A stretch of DNA of 64,000 nucleotides from the human T2T-CHM13v2.0 reference genome, Homo sapiens (GCF_009914755.1 NC_060933.1); one strand, 5' to 3'. Positions 46,338 to 53,670 are shown, numbered from the stretch's first letter. Made by a program: numbers and translations. The notes: generated by a model not told the origin, from the sequence alone.

Positions 46338-47250
46338 TTTTTTTAGAGAGCACAACTCCAAAGCATCTTTTATTAATATAGAAAGGTCATATTTAGCAAA
46401 AGACACAAGGCAGGGAAGTGTCAGGCCTGAGGCCTGAGCTGTGCTGAGGGAGAAAGAGGCTCTGGACAAGTGCTGGGAAGGGCTGAGTGGTGGGGGCCAC
46501 AGAAAGTTCCAGTGGGCAACACTGTCTGCAGGTCATGGGTGGGACTCACGGGGACCTCGCTGCTAACTCTTGTTGCGTTGGCGGGGTGGGGTGGGGAGGG
46601 GGGTCCTTAGTGCTGCCACCTGCAGTGAGAACCGTCCCTTGGTTCCTGGAGGGCACCCATCAAGGGACACAGGACAGGAAGCCCAGGATGGTTAGTGCAA
46701 CTAGGGATGAAGGCCAGGGAGAAGCAGGTGCTCTGAAGTCCAGACACAGAGGCCTAGGAGCTTCCTGTTAAGTGTGGGCGTTCCGCTCTGTCTCTACCAG
46801 GCACTCTGACTAGGGATGGATGATACCTCTCTTCAGGCGCTCCGCGGCGCTCTTGCTGCCAGCATAGGTGGGCCGGATCCCTTTGCCCATCTCCCCTGTG
46901 ACCAACAGCGGTTCCGTGTAGGTGCTCTGGGAGCCCTGGGCACCAGGTGGTTTCATGGCCTGCACACAACCGACCGTAGGTGGTCCGAAGTCTTTAAACA
47001 GCGGTCTGCAAGGGGCAGTGGCTCCCGGCCCTGAGCCCGACGGCGACGGGACGCTTCCTGTAGGGACCGGAGTGCCTGGCCCAGGGGTGCTGAAGCCGGG
47101 GGTGCTGCTGGGGGCAGGGGTGGTAGGTTTGTAGGACATCCCCAACTCCTGGGCGCTGGGGAAGCCAGCAGGCTGCTCTTCGGGGGTTGGCTGCGGGACC
47201 GCTCAGCAGCGATCTGATTGGCAAGCGGGCTGCACGCCCCCTGGTAAATC
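46338..47250 (-). pseudogene. CDK2AP2P: CDK2AP2 (DOC-1R) processed pseudogene; ORF 47139..46810 (109 aa)
   Basis: MSYKP...GAQGSQSTY...IRPTYAGSKS..ERLKRGIIH. Intronless with 5' and 3' UTR, AATAAA at 46373-46368, poly(A) remnant 46344-46338, TSD tatattaaac at 46328-46337 and 47251-47260. Confidence 0.95.
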
Positions 47251-47785
47251 TATATTAAACGTTTTAACTGCAATTTGTATTAATCTAAATACAGTTCAAA
47301 TATTCTCCATGAAAATTTCACATTTGAGTTGAGACATCCTAAAATGTAAAATACACAATGGATTTCAAAGATTTCATATGAAAAAAGAATGCAAACTATC
47401 TCTAATAATTTTTATATTGATTACATATTGACCCAATATTTTGGATATATATTGGGTTAAATAAAATATACAATTTAAAAAAATTATGCTACATTTTTGT
47501 TAAAAAATTTAAATAAACTATATATGAAATTATTTCTTGGGATAGAAAAGGGGACGTGATTAAATATTTACTTAAACTTTTTTCAAAAACATATCTTTAA
47601 AACAGATTTTCAAACACAAAAGTATTTTAATTTTGAATAGGTAAAATAAACTTATTCCTGCTGAAATTCAATCATGGCATGATTTCCTTTGTATGCATTT
47701 GAGGACTCTGTTTATAACCCAGATAAAAACATAAAACTTTTGAAACTCTTCTAAGAATGTCTAACACAAATTACCTGTATAGATA

Positions 47786-48600
47786 TCATGGCACAGACGA
47801 TGCTGAGGCCGGACTGACTGAAGAAGAACAGGCTGAAGATGCTGTACTCACACAGCAGCTGGCCCCCAGGTTACCCGCCCTTCATGTACATGGCGATGGT
47901 CACCTGGCTCACCAGCAAAGTGAACAACAGGTCGGTGGCAGCCAGCCGCATAACTGTATAGAAGGTGGTCTCCTTCTGCTCCTTGCGCGACTTGCACAGC
48001 ACCACGATGGCCACCAGGTTGCCCACCACCCCGAAAATGGACGGTCCCAGGCTGTCCAGCAGATTGGGCTCCAGGCCAAGGACACATTGGCCTGGGAAGG
48101 GGTTAACATGACAGTGGCTGGTGGTACGCAGCCCTGGAGTGCAAAGCTGAGTCTGGAGATGGCAGAAGAGAGACAAAGCCACCATGAGTGAAATGACCAC
48201 CTGCAGGGCATTAGACCCGCGCCCAGGAAACGGGATGCTAACATGACAAGGGAGGAACTCAATCCCACTCTCTGGATTGCAACCACTTACCAACGGCAGC
48301 CACCCAAATCTCCAGGCTCCCTCTGCTCCTGCCAGCAGCACACCCTTGCTGATCTTAATATTTATAAACTGAGCCTCCCATTCCTCTTCCTCCCCCCAGC
48401 CTATCTCACTCCACTGACAAGACCCATCTCCAGGGAAAGGTAGCTCCCTAGTATTATTCCCGACAGATTCTGAGTTAATAAAATGCACATTGAAACCCTG
48501 GAAGACAATTTGGAAAGCGCTCTCTTTCCTCCTTGGCTCCCCTGGCAGCGCCGCATCTCCGCGCCCTTTGCCTGATGGCCCACATCCCATGTCACGTGTA
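47786..48600 (-). pseudogene. PTGER4P: PTGER4 (EP4 receptor) unprocessed fragment: probable intron 1 plus 5' part of exon 2 (TM1-TM3)
   Basis: IFGVVGNLVAIVVLCKSRKEQKETTFYT...TDLL..LLVS.VTIA.YMKG. Acceptor ctctcttctgccatctccag at 48154-48153, ATG 43 nt into the exon (48109); frameshifted and truncated. Confidence 0.93.
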
Positions 48601-48630
48601 ACGGCCCCAGTGGTGGGGCCTAAGACAATG

Positions 48631-51600: not shown

Positions 51601-52590
51601 TAGGAATATACCTAGCAAAGTAATCAAAAGACCTCTACAATGAAAATTACAAAACACTGCTGAAAGAAATCATAGATGGAGCCAAGCACGTTGGCGCATG
51701 CCTATAATCCCAGCTACTCGGGAAACCGAGGCAGGAGAATCACTTGAACCCGGGAGGCAGAAGTTGTAGTGAGCCGAGATCACACCATTGCACTCCCACC
51801 TCAGCGACAAGAGCGAAACTACCTCTGAAAAAAAAAAAAACAAGAAAGAAAAGAAATCATAGATGACACAAACAAATGGAAACACATCCCCATGCTCACG
51901 GATGGGTAGAACCAATATTGTGAAAATTACCATTCTGTTAAAGGCAATCTACGAATTCAATGCAATCCCCATCTGAATACCACCATCATCCCTCACAGAA
52001 TTACAAAAACAATTCTAAAATTAATATGGAACCAAAAGAGTGCCATGTAGCCAAACCAAGGCTAAGCAAAAAGAACAAGCCTGGAGGCATCACACTACTT
52101 GATTTCAAACTGTACAATAAGGCCATAGTTACCAGAACAGCATGGTACTGGTTTAAAAATAGGCACATAGACCAATGGAACAGAAGAGAGAACTCAGAAA
52201 TTAACCCAAATACTTACAGCCAACTGATCTTTGACAAAGCAAACAAAAACATAAAGTGGGGAAAGGACACCCTTTTCAACACATGAAGTTGGGATAATTG
52301 GCGAGCCACATGTAGGGGAATAAAACTGGATTCTCATCTCTCACCTTATACAAAAATCTACTCAAGATGGATTAAGAATTTAAACCTAATTCCTGAACTG
52401 TAAAAATTCTAGAAGATAACACTGGATAAACCCTTCTAGACATTGGCATAGGCAAGGATTTCATGACCAAGAACCCAAATGCAAATGCAATAAAAACAAA
52501 GATAAATAGCTGGGACTTAATTAAACTAAAGAGCTTTTGCATGGCAAAGGGAACAGTCAGCAGAGTAAATAGACAAATCGCAGAGTGGGA
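48631..52590 (+). mobile_element. Degraded L1 (L1PA/PB age), mid-ORF1 to late ORF2, truncated at both ends
   Basis: ORF fragments [40 protein letters not shown]; no 5'UTR, 3'UTR or poly(A). Confidence 0.95.
51680..51849 (+). mobile_element. Alu right monomer inserted in the L1
   Basis: TSD aaagaaatcatagatg at 51663-51678 and 51850-51865. Confidence 0.9.
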
Positions 52591-52838
52591 CCCCTGACCC
52601 TGACCCCTAACCACTGACCCTGACCCCTAACCCCTGACACAAACCCTAACCACTATCCCTAACCCCAACCCTCACCCTAACCCAACCCTAACCCCTAATC
52701 CCTAACCCCTAACATCTCTTAAACCCTAACTCTAAACGTTGACTCCTAACCCCTAACTCTGACCCCAATCCCTATCTCCAACCTCTAACCCTAAACTTAA
52801 CCCCTAACCCCTAACCCTAACACCAACCTTAACCCTAG
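52591..52838. repeat. Interstitial degenerate telomeric array (CCCTAA)n with CCCTGA/CCCCAA/CCCTCA variants
   Basis: Seen directly; the G-rich strand is the minus strand. Confidence 0.95.
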
Positions 52839-53670
52839 GTTCGTTACTAAGTTTGTATTGACTATGTCAATGTTGATTATTATGATGGCTGTCTTTGGAC
52901 TGCACGGCAGCGAGGGGATTGCGGATCTTATATTAATATTTTTGTATTGAGGCAGCGCATTAGCATTACAGGTGCTTGTTACATGAGCAATGGGGGTGTC
53001 ATACTTTGGGTGTCATGTCTGCATTAGGAATGCCGCATTTGTCTTCCGAGGCTGCGGTGTGGATCTCGCACTGCGGCCGCCTCGCCTTGGCTGGGGAGAA
53101 CCTCGGTGGGCAGGATTCAGCGGGGCTTTTGGTTTCCCGTTTTCCACACTGAACCCTTCTAACTGGTCTCTGACCCTGATTATTCAGGGCTGCAAACAGG
53201 AAGGATTTTATTCACCGTTGATGCGGCCCCGAGTTGTCCCAAAGCGAGGCAGTGCCCCCAAGGTCTGTGCTGAGGAGAACGCTGCTCTGCCTTCGCGGTG
53301 TCCCCTGGGTGTGTGCTGAGCAGAACGCAGCTCCGCCCTCGCGGTACCCACGGCCCGCCCGCCCGGGTCTGTGCTGAGGCGAACACTGCTCCGCCTTCGC
53401 TGTATCTCCGAAGTCTGTGCAGAGGAGAACTCAGCTCCGCCCTCGCGATGCTCTCCGGGTCTGTGCCGAGGAGAAGGCAGCTCCGCCCTAGCAAAGGCAG
53501 AGCGCCCTTCGCAAAGGCAGAGAGGCGCAGAGCGCCGGGCGCCGGCGCGGAGGGGGCGCCGGCGCGGAGGGGGCGCCGGCGCGGAGGGGGCGCCGGCGCG
53601 GAGGGGGCGCCGGCGCGGAGGGGGCGCCGGCGCGGAGGGGGCGCCGGCGCAGGCGCGGAGAGGCGCAGAG
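52839..53670. repeat. TAR1 telomere-associated repeat
   Basis: Iterated tctgtgctgaggagaacgc.gctccgccctcgc units and gcgcaggcgc.gagaggcgc motifs immediately proximal to the telomeric array. Confidence 0.9.
53539..53650. repeat. 17-bp VNTR (GCGCCGGCGCGGAGGGG)x6.6
   Basis: Six perfect copies plus a 10-bp partial. Confidence 0.97.

What the first reader, a model, noticed from the sequence alone, without database searches (positions are those of the whole stretch)
46338..53670. Internalised telomere/TAR1 (TERRA-type) promoter aimed at a chain of co-oriented pseudogene exons
Seen: the TAR1 CpG island lies right of the (CCCTAA)n array, so 'toward the telomere' is the minus strand. Downstream on that strand are PTGER4P, CDK2AP2P, MYO5BP and FGF7P, all minus. 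A splice path exists: candidate TAR1 donor ACG|GTGAAT (53216/53215), native-type PTGER4 acceptor (exon starts 48152), non-PTGER4 donor CAG|GTAATT (47775) just past the breakpoint, weak acceptor tttaccag (exon starts 47240), then the CDK2AP2P AATAAA (46373-46368). Known: TAR1 CpG repeats drive TERRA toward the chromosome end, and a PTGER4P-CDK2AP2P read-through is annotated (recall). Inference: a captured subtelomeric promoter drives a chimeric gene assembled from a telomere, a duplicon and a retrocopy; its unspliced or intronic RNA would carry UUAGGG-like repeats (interstitial TERRA).
Basis: partly seen in the sequence, partly recalled or inferred. Interest (0 to 1): 0.8.

Follow-up and report, generated by a model that had tools for sequence, protein, structure and literature searches.

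The report
Internal TERRA-type promoter driving pseudogene transcript
A piece of an old chromosome end (telomere repeats plus their promoter) sits inside human chromosome 9 and starts a spliced pseudogene RNA there, which is real but already annotated and described in print.

Summary
A degenerate (CCCTAA)n tract (52589-52837) is followed by a spacer, a pre-telomeric block, 37-bp-type repeats and a 29-bp-related GC array. These are collinear at about 80-82% with the TERRA promoters of Xq, 10q, 9p and 9q, with telomere-ward on the minus strand.

The second acceptor (47240) and the poly(A) site are not the annotated ones, which are 47338 and 44753. MYO5BP and FGF7P lie outside every annotated transcript.

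Both the class and this ITS are in print. Santagostino et al. 2025 describe 106 interstitial TERRA-like promoters, clustered at 9q21.11 among other bands, many next to pseudogene starts. Hsieh et al. 2025 list chr9:80342589-80342837 as TERRA-enriched.

New here:
- The pseudogene arrangement exists in 10 copies.
- The donor G|GTGAAT is ancestral to true TERRA promoters.
- Exon 1 through the ITS is identical to a 9p copy, so published reads cannot be assigned to this copy.
- A 17-mer array between two divergent start sites is private to this copy.

Verdict: real, mostly correctly read, already known.

The parts
53537..53650 (.). GC-rich 17-mer tandem array (6.7 units, 100% matches), related to the 29-bp TERRA core repeat. 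It lies between the two divergent annotated start sites, 53518 (-) and 53683 (+).
   Evidence: TRF. It aligns opposite the 29-bp arrays of Xq, 10q, 9q and 9p. There are 6 exact units here against 1 in chr9:80.19M and chr9:40.80M and 0 in the other 17 interstitial loci. CpG o/e of 53521-53682 is 1.20.
53216..53518 (-). Annotated first exon of the TAR1-start isoform. It covers the 37-bp-type repeat region and ends at the donor ACG|GTGAAT.
   Evidence: Exon from the hub's RefSeq table. Donor read. Collinear with the 37-bp repeat region of four true ends. TRF finds a 46-bp period over 53363-53489. The donor core G|GTGAAT is invariant in 17 of 17 paralogues.
52981..53215 (-). Pre-telomeric ('pre-tel') block downstream of the donor; it forms the start of intron 1.
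   Evidence: Aligned to Xq, 10q, 9q and 9p, which pass into TTAGGG repeats at the position equivalent to 52981.
52838..52980 (-). A spacer of about 143 bp between pre-tel and the telomeric tract. It is absent from the four true ends compared.
   Evidence: Gap in the alignment. All 40 scored matches (of 68 candidates) are interstitial, at 93-100% identity.
52589..52837 (-). Degenerate interstitial telomeric sequence. It reads (TTAGGG)-like on the minus strand and is intronic in the spliced RNA.
   Evidence: 15 exact hexamers, 25 GGG runs, 2 non-overlapping canonical G4 motifs. The same coordinates appear in Hsieh et al. Supplementary Table 4.1.
48621..52588 (+). L1 fragment with an Alu insert, truncated where it meets the telomeric tract. 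It carries the alternative antisense first exon 51315-51158 with donor AG|GTATGT.
   Evidence: A-rich plus strand. The ITS/L1 junction is crossed contiguously by 20 of 20 loci. The many short genome hits of query 1-76 mark 48700-48625 as a common repeat. The donor was read and the GT is kept in 16 of 17 paralogues. The names L1 and Alu are my reading of the sequence, not a tool call.
47786..48616 (-). Unprocessed PTGER4 fragment: part of intron 1 plus the start of the first coding exon, with an in-frame stop.
   Evidence: 78% identity to chr5:40936874-40937749 over query 85-915. Pfam 7tm_1 profile positions 1-46, 25.2 bits, below the cut-off of 30.5. Stop seen. Naming the chr5 place as PTGER4 rests on the hub's gene name and my recall.
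47775..48152 (-). PTGER4P2 exon: acceptor ...ctccag|A at 48152, donor CAG|GTAATT at 47775.
   Evidence: Hub table. The AG of the acceptor and the whole donor are kept in 8 of 8 full-length paralogues.
46338..47249 (-). CDK2AP2 processed retrocopy with an A-run, its own AATAAA (46374-46369), 10-bp target-site duplications (47260-47251 and 46337-46328) and an open 109-codon frame (47139-46810).
   Evidence: One contiguous stretch matches four separate pieces at chr11:67.50 Mb. Pfam CDK2AP 31.2 bits, above the cut-off of 26.2. TSD: 4 hits in the window against 0.33 expected. ORF.
44753..47338 (-). Annotated last exon: acceptor ttttag|GATG at 47338, 3' end at 44753 with AATAAA at 44772-44767.
   Evidence: Hub table. 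The acceptor is kept in 8 of 8 paralogues.
53683..57740 (+). Divergent single-exon lncRNA LOC100132249. It starts 165 bp from the minus-strand start. Its 5' part is CpG-rich with units of about 327 bp (53693-54650).
   Evidence: Hub table. Self-matches at about 70% identity. GC profile. CpG o/e 0.61.

Best explanation
The stretch is one copy of a segmental-duplication family that carries an internalised chromosome end. On the minus strand it reads: a 29-bp-related GC array, 37-bp-type repeats, pre-tel, a spacer and a degenerate (TTAGGG)n tract. That tract is fused to a truncated L1.

The CpG island works as a divergent promoter. Toward the old telomere, RNA polymerase II starts just downstream of the 29-bp-related array, at annotated position 53518. 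This is the same relative place where TERRA starts at true ends.

The nascent RNA then has two fates.
1. The ancestral pre-tel donor (53216|53215) is used. The 5.06-kb intron, which holds the telomeric tract, the L1 and PTGER4 intron-1 sequence, is removed. Exon 1 joins the native PTGER4 exon acceptor (48152), and the RNA ends at 44753 after the CDK2AP2 retrocopy. This is PTGER4P2-CDK2AP2P2, and it carries no UUAGGG.
2. The donor is not used. The RNA runs 379 nt further into the ITS and is an interstitial TERRA.

On the other strand the same island starts LOC100132249.

Shown: the anatomy, the homology to true TERRA promoters, the splice signals and their conservation, and the copy family.
Taken from annotation and print: the start site, the 53216>48152 junction, and TERRA-capture signal at these coordinates.
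Inferred: that one promoter feeds both fates, that donor use decides between them, and that this particular copy is active.
For: - Homology and orientation to the Xq, 10q, 9p and 9q TERRA promoters: 80.1-81.9% over 696-709 nt.
- The part of the Xq promoter that lies centromere-side of the aligned stretch (L021 812-1430) has no match in the window among hits at E<=1e-5. That part holds the 61-bp and 29-like repeats by the order given in the preprint. This fits the 61-less organisation that Santagostino et al. report for 55 interstitial promoters next to an ITS.
- RefSeq isoform exons 53518-53216 and 48152-44753 (hub table).
- The mirror paralogue at chr9:80.19 Mb carries the predicted gene LOC124906875. 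Its ends map to window-equivalent 53318 and 44756 (my arithmetic and the hub table).
- Rodrigues et al. [quoted passage not shown] Position 53518 is 19 nt downstream of the array end at 53537.
- Hsieh et al. 2025 state that ITS ('Type III') regions have CAGE tags and 37-bp promoters. They list this ITS as YES/YES.
- Santagostino et al.: 47 interstitial loci have pseudogene or ncRNA starts within 100 bp of the promoter, 16 of them on both sides. The loci cluster at 9p11.2 and 9q21.11, among other bands.
- Splice signals are conserved. The donor core is kept in 17 of 17 paralogues and in all four true ends aligned. The 48152 acceptor, the 47775 donor and the 47338 acceptor are each kept in 8 of 8.
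- There is a canonical AATAAA 14 nt before the annotated 3' end.
Against: - No expression data could be examined here. The start site and junction rest on annotation.
- Exon 1, pre-tel, spacer and ITS (930 nt) have 0 mismatches to the chr9:40.80 Mb copy and 5 to the chr9:80.19 Mb copy. Short TERRA-type reads therefore cannot be assigned to this copy.
- Hsieh's Table 4.2, 'Total enrichment sites: 19', has no chr9 row although Table 4.1 says YES/YES. The same supplement shows many Nanopore alignments with MAPQ 0-1.
- The other RefSeq isoform, NR_135010.1, starts in the L1 at 51315. The base before it is not an acceptor, so a second start or a truncated cDNA exists.
- Exact Xq-type 29-mers number 0 here. 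Hsieh et al. class the promoter as '37 nt' only.
- Rodrigues et al. saw no splicing signature in captured TERRA reads. That is expected if spliced products lose the repeat, but it gives no positive support for the switch.
Confidence: 0.75

Rival explanations
1. The family is expressed, but not this copy. The cDNAs and TERRA-capture reads placed here come from near-identical paralogues, chiefly the other chr9 copies. This copy may be methylated and silent, so its annotation would be a mapping courtesy.
For: - There are 10 copies of the PTGER4P-CDK2AP2P segment at 94-100% identity.
- There are 0 mismatches over 930 nt (exon 1 to ITS) against chr9:40.80 Mb.
- Hsieh's Table 4.2 has no chr9 row, and many alignments in that supplement have low MAPQ.
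- Santagostino et al. themselves warn that transcripts may not map to the right locus.
- TERRA-type CpG islands are reported as heavily methylated in telomerase-positive cells.
Against: - The PTGER4P exon differs by 2-3 bases and the last exon by 4-9 bases plus gaps from the nearest copies. Full-length cDNAs can therefore be placed, and RefSeq curates two here.
- Hsieh's Table 4.1 lists this ITS. The strings '40801' and '80193', which would mark the twin ITSs, occur 0 times in that supplement.
- Nothing in the sequence disables this copy; all signals are intact.
Confidence: 0.2
2. The TAR1-type island is a minor or incidental start. The main promoter of PTGER4P2-CDK2AP2P2 lies elsewhere, in the L1-antisense exon region near 51315 or in the PTGER4 intron-1/CpG-rich sequence at 48153-48616. 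The island mainly serves the plus-strand lncRNA LOC100132249, and minus-strand RNAs are by-products of divergent initiation.
For: - NR_135010.1, the transcript the hub table shows first, starts at 51315. It has a strong donor, AG|GTATGT, whose GT is kept in 16 of 17 paralogues.
- LOC100132249 starts 165 bp away on the other strand (hub table).
- The 61-bp repeats are absent and no CTCF consensus is found. In print the 61-bp repeats are said to favour Pol II recruitment and to limit centromere-ward transcription (with a motif typed from recall).
Against: - L1 ORF2 antisense sequence is not a known promoter, and 51315 may simply be a truncated cDNA end.
- The mirror paralogue's predicted model also begins inside the 37-bp repeats (hub table).
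- Published CAGE and Nanopore statements place ITS-TERRA starts in 37-bp repeats.
- The PTGER4 fragment has CpG o/e of only 0.38.
Confidence: 0.15
3. The locus is a young protein-coding retrogene. The TERRA-type promoter and the borrowed exons serve to express the 109-codon CDK2AP2-like frame.
For: - The frame is open, with the same start and stop, in 9 of 9 copies examined.
- Pairwise pN/pS is 0.27-0.43.
- Pfam CDK2AP scores above its cut-off.
- The mirror copy is predicted 'protein_coding' in the hub table.
Against: - After setting aside CpG transitions, the 15 remaining events are 4 synonymous and 11 non-synonymous. That is 73%, against a neutral expectation of 74% (P=0.58).
- With 33 events, the chance of no stop arising is about 0.36.
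- The Pfam match ends at profile position 192 of 209, so the C-terminal part of the domain is not covered.
- Upstream ATGs in the PTGER4P exon precede it.
- RefSeq curates the RNA as non-coding.
Confidence: 0.05

Closest known systems
Interstitial TERRA-like promoters lacking the 61-bp repeat ('type K', Fig. 1K) of Santagostino et al. 2025, bioRxiv 10.1101/2025.05.15.654290
   Same: The 29-related array, 37-bp repeats and pre-tel lie next to an ITS with no 61-bp repeats. The locus sits inside a segmental duplication at 9q21.11, one of the bands they name. Pseudogene and ncRNA starts lie within 100 bp on both sides, as they report for 47 and 16 loci.
   Different: I could not see their Supplemental Tables S3 and S4, because bioRxiv supplements are closed. 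So I cannot say which numbered locus this is, or whether they list PTGER4P2-CDK2AP2P2. Neither PTGER4 nor CDK2AP2 occurs in their main text. They do not discuss splicing from the pre-tel donor. This copy also has a spacer and a private 17-mer expansion.
Type III (ITS) TERRA transcription regions of Hsieh et al. 2025, NAR, PMC12242772
   Same: The ITS has the same coordinates (chr9:80342589-80342837) in their Supplementary Table 4.1, with TERRA enrichment YES, Nanopore read YES and promoter type '37 nt'.
   Different: The locus is not among the 19 sites quantified in Table 4.2. Their reads cannot tell this copy from the identical 9p copy. They make no link to the annotated pseudogene transcript.
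Canonical subtelomeric TERRA promoter (61-29-37 repeats plus pre-tel; Xq reference chrX:154255311-154256622)
   Same: Collinear at about 81% from the 29-bp array to the end of pre-tel. It has the same donor-like GGTGAATAAAAT, the same orientation toward the repeats, and is a CpG island.
   Different: The 61-bp and 29-like parts are missing. There are no exact 29-mers, and a 17-mer derivative takes their place. A 143-bp spacer is added. The telomere is a 249-bp degenerate tract fused to an L1, so downstream acceptors exist and the RNA can be spliced.
Ancestral telomere fusion site at 2q14 with flanking TERRA promoters
   Same: An internalised telomere with TERRA-type promoters. The window's 53533-53068 aligns to it at 84%. 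It is transcribed according to Hsieh et al. and Santagostino et al.
   Different: There, two telomeres meet head to head and the 61-bp repeats are kept. Here a single end is joined to an L1 and has been copied many times.
Subtelomere-derived transcribed pseudogene families such as DDX11L (review PMC7374410, passages)
   Same: Rearranged gene fragments that travel with telomere-adjacent duplicons, are transcribed and use canonical splicing.
   Different: In the passages I saw, DDX11L is not described as using the TERRA CpG island as its promoter. Here the first exon is the 37-bp repeat region itself.

Membership tests
TERRA-type CpG-island promoter (61-29-37 repeats plus pre-tel) | 29-bp repeat tract, the minimal promoter in reporter assays | tested here: inconclusive
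   There are 0 exact Xq-type 29-mers. A 17-mer array aligns opposite the 29-bp arrays of four true ends, and beside it one unit close to a 29-mer is visible. Hsieh et al. class the locus as '37 nt' only. Santagostino et al. accept tracts from 25 bp.
TERRA-type CpG-island promoter (61-29-37 repeats plus pre-tel) | 37-bp repeat tract | tested here: met
   53490-53220 is collinear with the 37-bp region of Xq, 10q, 9q and 9p. TRF finds a repeat over 53363-53489. Hsieh et al. label it '37 nt'.
TERRA-type CpG-island promoter (61-29-37 repeats plus pre-tel) | Conserved pre-tel block between the last 37-bp unit and the repeats | tested here: met
   53219-52981 aligns to all four true ends. A 34-place pre-tel anchor pattern has 72 genome matches against 0 in the control.
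TERRA-type CpG-island promoter (61-29-37 repeats plus pre-tel) | 61-bp repeats with CTCF sites | tested here: not met
   No match to the centromere-side part of the Xq promoter (L021 812-1430), which holds these repeats by the order given in the preprint. There are 0 hits to a CTCF consensus with up to 1 mismatch in the window (motif typed from recall). Santagostino et al. report the 61-bp repeat missing at 97 of 106 interstitial promoters, so its absence does not exclude the interstitial subclass.
TERRA-type CpG-island promoter (61-29-37 repeats plus pre-tel) | CpG island | tested here: met
   GC 0.68 and CpG o/e 0.71 over 53000-54800. GC 0.88 and CpG o/e 1.20 over 53521-53682.
TERRA-type CpG-island promoter (61-29-37 repeats plus pre-tel) | Drives RNA polymerase II transcription toward the telomeric repeats; silenced by DNMT1/DNMT3B methylation | not testable with these tools
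   There is only the annotation (start at 53518, hub table) and published capture, CAGE and Nanopore statements. None of these is copy-specific.
TERRA / interstitial TERRA (iTERRA) source locus | The template gives UUAGGG repeats in the RNA sense, downstream of the start | tested here: met
   The minus-strand reading of 52837-52589 is TTAGGG-like: 15 exact hexamers, 25 GGG runs, and 379 nt downstream of the donor. The tract is degenerate, with a longest perfect run of 2 units.
Processed pseudogene (retrocopy) of CDK2AP2 | Intronless copy of the spliced mRNA, with a poly(A) remnant and target-site duplication | tested here: met
   Contiguous 47249-46346 matches four separate pieces at chr11:67.50 Mb. 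A 7-A run is present. A 10-bp TSD flanks both ends. Pfam CDK2AP scores above its cut-off.
Unprocessed PTGER4 pseudogene fragment | Genomic copy that includes intron sequence, with a disabled frame | tested here: met
   78% identity to chr5:40.94 Mb across 48616-47786, spanning 464 nt upstream of the exon acceptor. There is an in-frame stop. The 7tm_1 N-terminal match is below the Pfam cut-off.

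The most novel reading that the evidence does not exclude
The donor-like GGTGAATAAAAT in pre-tel may be a working U1 snRNP site in every TERRA-type promoter. It is kept in 65 of 72 anchored copies genome-wide, including 19 of 20 anchored true chromosome ends.

At true ends it has no partner acceptor. 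Because it overlaps an AATAAA, it might there control early termination, polyadenylation or chromatin retention of TERRA.

At internalised copies such as this one, the same site turns the telomere promoter into a pseudogene or lncRNA promoter. Donor use would then decide, molecule by molecule, between an interstitial TERRA and a repeat-free spliced RNA.

The 17-mer expansion private to this copy, placed between the two divergent starts, could tune that output.
Probability: 0.12. Interest if true: 0.55.

Novelty: already known. Interest (0 to 1): 0.25.

Why it matters
The locus is a clear, fully resolved example of how a former chromosome end keeps working after it is internalised. Its promoter still fires toward the old telomere, but it now meets acceptors and builds a chimeric pseudogene RNA.

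The example bears on how much 'TERRA' signal comes from non-telomeric sites. Two recent papers raise this point. Here it can be made concrete: from exon 1 through the ITS, two chr9 copies are identical over 930 nt, so reads cannot be assigned by locus.

For gene annotation, it explains the promoter of PTGER4P2-CDK2AP2P2 and of the divergent LOC100132249. As a discovery it adds little, because the exon, the junction, the ITS transcription and the promoter class are all already recorded.

Tried and rejected
- **Selection on the CDK2AP2-like frame.** The frame is open in 9 of 9 copies and pN/pS is 0.27-0.43. The excess of synonymous change is all CpG transitions; non-CpG events are 4 synonymous to 11 non-synonymous, which is neutral. 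Rejected.
- **Known RNA families.** Rfam at gathering thresholds found 0 matches in 43000-58000.
- **CTCF, NRF1, GGGGCGGGG and TATA motifs in the island.** None found. GGGCGG occurs 10 times. The motifs were typed from recall, so this is weak evidence.
- **Special conservation of the donor.** The flanking 27 specified bases are just as conserved, by construction of the anchor. So the 65 of 72 figure does not show selection on the donor itself.
- **Whether the L1 is part of the PTGER4 parent locus.** Homology to chr5 stops at 48616, before the L1. So it is not, within the limits of detection.
- **Exact TERRA start in the original promoter paper.** Nergadze et al. 2009 (PMC2779677) is not held. 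I used Rodrigues 2024 and Hsieh 2025 instead.
- **More genome loci** (chr15:16.57 Mb copy, chr5 and chr11 parents, ends with a 'spacer').
- **Literature searches that found nothing.** 'PTGER4 + pseudogene + pericentromeric + FGF7 + chromosome 9' gave 0 papers. 'telomeric repeat-containing RNA + splice site + U1 snRNP + subtelomeric' gave 0 papers. 'PTGER4P2-CDK2AP2P2' gave 4 papers; judged from the listing only, all are expression or methylation screens.

Full report
**What is there**

The window is human T2T-CHM13 chr9:80290001-80354000. Reading the minus strand from right to left, the finding covers these parts in order:

- A perfectly repeated GC-rich 17-mer array at 53537-53650, with 6.7 units and 100% matches.
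- A block of 37-bp-type repeats, about 53490-53220. TRF sees a 46-bp period over 53363-53489.
- A conserved block down to 52981.
- A further stretch of about 143 bp, 52980-52838.
- A degenerate telomeric tract, 52837-52589. It has 15 exact hexamers in 249 nt, and its longest perfect run is two units.

The tract abuts a plus-oriented, A-rich L1 fragment with an Alu insert (48621-52588). The names L1 and Alu are my own reading of the sequence.

Next come three more parts:

- An 831-bp piece that matches chr5:40936874-40937749 at 78% (window 48616-47786). It holds the first 46 profile positions of a rhodopsin-type receptor domain (7tm_1, 25.2 bits, below the cut-off of 30.5) and an in-frame stop.
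- AT-rich sequence.
- An intronless copy of a gene whose four exon pieces lie at chr11:67.50 Mb (window 47249-46346). It scores Pfam CDK2AP at 31.2 bits, above the cut-off. It has a 7-A run and 10-bp target-site duplications at 47260-47251 and 46337-46328 (4 hits in the window against 0.33 expected).

These last parts are the PTGER4P2 and CDK2AP2P2 of the hub's gene table.

**Is it a TERRA-type promoter?**

I fetched the Xq reference promoter, whose coordinates are given by Santagostino et al., together with the 10q, 9p and 9q ends and the 2q14 fusion site. The window's minus strand 53666-52981 aligns to all four ends at 80.1-81.9% over 696-709 nt, and to the 2q14 site at 84% over 470 nt.

In the multiple alignment, the 17-mer array lies opposite the 29-bp arrays. 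The 37-bp and pre-tel blocks are collinear. The true ends pass into TTAGGG repeats at the position equivalent to 52981, so 52980-52838 is an extra spacer.

The part of the Xq promoter on the centromere side of the aligned stretch has no counterpart here. Exact Xq-type 29-mers number 0, although one near-29-mer unit is visible beside the array.

The CpG island runs to about 54800. GC is 0.68 and CpG o/e is 0.71 overall. Over the stretch between the two annotated starts (53521-53682), GC is 0.88 and CpG o/e is 1.20.

This is the 61-less interstitial organisation that Santagostino et al. report for 55 of their 67 ITS-adjacent interstitial promoters.

**Splice path**

Compared with the hub's RefSeq table:

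|---|---|---|
| Donor, exon end 53216 | yes | yes, exon 53518-53216 |
| Acceptor, exon start 48152 | yes | yes, joined to 53216 in the second isoform |
| Donor, exon end 47775 | yes | yes, but only in NR_135010.1 |
| Acceptor, exon start 47240 | yes, pyrimidine-poor | no; RefSeq uses 47338 (ttttag\|GATG) |
| Poly(A) signal near 46370 | yes, at 46374-46369 | no; both isoforms end at 44753 |

The annotated 3' end at 44753 has an AATAAA at 44772-44767. NR_135010.1 starts at 51315, antisense in the L1, and uses the donor AG|GTATGT at 51158. The TAR1-start isoform retains 47774-47339.

The other junction and the 3' end are not. MYO5BP2 and FGF7P8 are outside every annotated transcript.

In the spliced TAR1-start RNA, the telomeric tract lies in a 5,063-nt intron, 379 nt past the donor.

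**The copy family**

A genome search with 52840-53660 gave 42 matches, from 40 scored of 150 candidates. They lie at chr9 pericentromeric sites, the acrocentric short arms, 1q21, 2p11, and near the centromeres of chromosomes 3, 4 and 20, and on the Y. No true end is in that list.

All 20 loci cut out cross the ITS/L1 junction contiguously. So the fusion of the chromosome end to the L1 predates the family.

Seventeen 10-kb loci show nested boundaries:

- Homology back to 50028: chr9:76.96M, chr22, chr4, chr3, chrY and chr15, at 90-94%.
- To 49434: chr9:44.21M.
- To 48621: chr1 and chr2, at 94%.
- To 46040: chr13, chr21 and chr14, at 96-97%.
- Over the whole 10 kb: chr9:42.01M (98.7%), 40.80M (99.6%), 80.19M (99.7%), 47.78M (98.4%) and chr20:30.31M (94.5%).

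Searches with the PTGER4P and CDK2AP2P parts each find the same 10 copies at 94-100%. Five are on chr9, and one each is on chromosomes 13, 14, 15, 20 and 21.

In the eight full-length paralogues held, the AG of the 48152 acceptor, the 47775 donor and the 47338 acceptor are each kept in 8 of 8.

The copy at chr9:80.19 Mb is a mirror image about 150 kb away. It coincides with the hub's predicted gene LOC124906875. That gene's ends map to window-equivalent 53318 and 44756, so its model also begins inside the 37-bp repeats.

**The donor is ancestral**

G|GTGAAT is unchanged in the window, in 17 of 17 paralogues and in all four true ends aligned.

Genome-wide, a donor-free pre-tel anchor pattern has 72 matches, with 0 in the control. 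The same anchor with GGTGAA specified has 65 matches, all among the 72. The seven that differ are:

- chr2:132.25M
- the 13q end
- chr15:0.17M
- two on chr18
- chr21:0.23M
- chr21:11.70M

Of 20 anchored sites within a few kb of a contig end, 19 keep the donor. These counts miss copies with changes in the anchor. Because the anchor itself is equally conserved, they do not show selection on the donor.

The motif overlaps an AATAAA.

**What print already says**

- Santagostino et al. 2025 (bioRxiv; abstract, Results and Concluding remarks read) report 106 interstitial TERRA-like promoters in this assembly. Of these, 67 lie next to an ITS and 97 lack the 61-bp repeat. They are enriched at 9p11.2 and 9q21.11 among other bands. 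At 47 loci, pseudogene or ncRNA starts lie within 100 bp, and at 16 of these on both sides. RT-qPCR and Nanopore data give evidence for 'iTERRA'.
- Hsieh et al. 2025 (NAR; passages, section 26 and Supplementary Table 4 seen) list chr9:80342589-80342837 with Illumina TERRA enrichment YES, Nanopore read YES and promoter '37 nt'. They state that ITS regions show CAGE tags and 37-bp promoters. The same locus is missing from their Table 4.2 of 19 quantified sites.
- Rodrigues et al. 2024 (RNA; passages) place TERRA starts just downstream of the 29-bp repeats. This matches 53518, which is 19 nt from the array. They saw no splicing signature in captured TERRA reads.
- The four papers naming PTGER4P2-CDK2AP2P2 look like expression or methylation screens (listing only).

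**Limits**

I could not examine any expression data.

Exon 1, pre-tel, spacer and ITS (930 nt) have 0 mismatches to the chr9:40.80 Mb copy and 5 to the 80.19 Mb copy. TERRA-type reads therefore cannot be tied to this copy. The PTGER4P exon (2-3 differences) and the last exon (4-9 differences plus gaps) can discriminate between copies.

So activity of the family is well supported, while activity of this copy is inferred.

**Side results**

- The 17-mer array is private to this copy. It has 6 exact units here, 1 in each of the two nearest copies and 0 in the other 17 interstitial loci. The paralogues carry two to four variant units, and this copy is 68 bp longer than the mirror copy. The array sits exactly between the divergent starts 53518 (-) and 53683 (+).
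- The 109-codon CDK2AP2-like frame is open in 9 of 9 copies. Its substitutions are neutral once CpG transitions are set aside.
- Rfam finds nothing in 43000-58000.

**Verdict**

The structure, its transcription and its class are already annotated or published, so the finding is ordinary in novelty.

What remains open:

- Whether this copy is itself active.
- Whether use of the ancestral pre-tel donor decides between interstitial TERRA and the spliced pseudogene RNA.
- Whether that donor does anything at true chromosome ends.

Noticed in passing
window 53537-53650: A perfect 17-mer GC array of 6 exact units is private to this copy. The 99.6-99.7% identical chr9 paralogues have 1 exact unit and the other 17 interstitial loci have 0. 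This copy is 68 bp longer than the mirror copy. The array lies exactly between the divergent annotated starts 53518 (-) and 53683 (+), so it may be a length-variable promoter minisatellite.
   Followed up: partly
window 52589-53518 versus L036 (chr9:40.80 Mb): Exon 1, pre-tel, spacer and ITS (930 nt) are identical between the 9q21.11 copy and a 9p copy. The nearby mirror copy differs by 5 bases. Published locus-level TERRA counts for this ITS are therefore not copy-specific.
   Followed up: yes
window 46810-47139 (-): A 109-codon CDK2AP2-like frame is open with the same start and stop in 9 of 9 copies. The low pN/pS (0.27-0.43) is explained by CpG transitions; non-CpG changes are 4 synonymous to 11 non-synonymous. 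The mirror copy is nevertheless predicted 'protein_coding' (LOC124906875 in the hub table).
   Followed up: yes
window 53207-53218 (-), and 72 pre-tel copies genome-wide: The donor GGTGAAT overlaps an AATAAA (GGTGAATAAAAT). The six donor bases are kept in 65 of 72 anchored copies, including 19 of 20 anchored true ends. A splice-donor and poly(A)-signal overlap near the start of TERRA has no hit in my one literature search.
   Followed up: partly
window 53693-54650 (+): About three CpG-rich units of about 327 bp (self-identity about 70%) form the 5' part of LOC100132249. They are shared only by the chr9, chr13, chr14, chr20 and chr21 copies (L001-L009). In L010-L020 homology stops inside the 29-related array, at about 53494-53671.
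   Followed up: partly
window 53683-57740 (+): LOC100132249, the divergent partner of the TERRA-type promoter, is named in 25 papers. The ten I saw listed are mostly reviews of exosomal lncRNAs in diabetic retinopathy and endothelial-mesenchymal transition (listing only). I did not check whether any of them notes its promoter's origin.
   Followed up: no
Hsieh et al. 2025, Supplementary Tables 4.1 and 4.2: Table 4.1 marks more than 19 ITS rows YES/YES, including chr9:80342589-80342837. Table 4.2, 'Total enrichment sites: 19', has no chr9 row. The identical twin ITSs at chr9:40.80 Mb and 80.19 Mb are not found in the file by the coordinate strings I searched.
   Followed up: partly
window 52588/52589: The telomeric tract is joined to a truncated L1 with CCCTAA on the L1's sense strand. 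That is the wrong polarity for telomerase healing of the L1 break. It looks like the fusion of a chromosome end to a break. The junction is shared by 20 of 20 loci examined.
   Followed up: partly
window 46926-47459: A RefSeq 'enhancer' element (hub table) overlaps the 5' part of the CDK2AP2 retrocopy, its upstream target-site duplication and the annotated 47338 acceptor.
   Followed up: no
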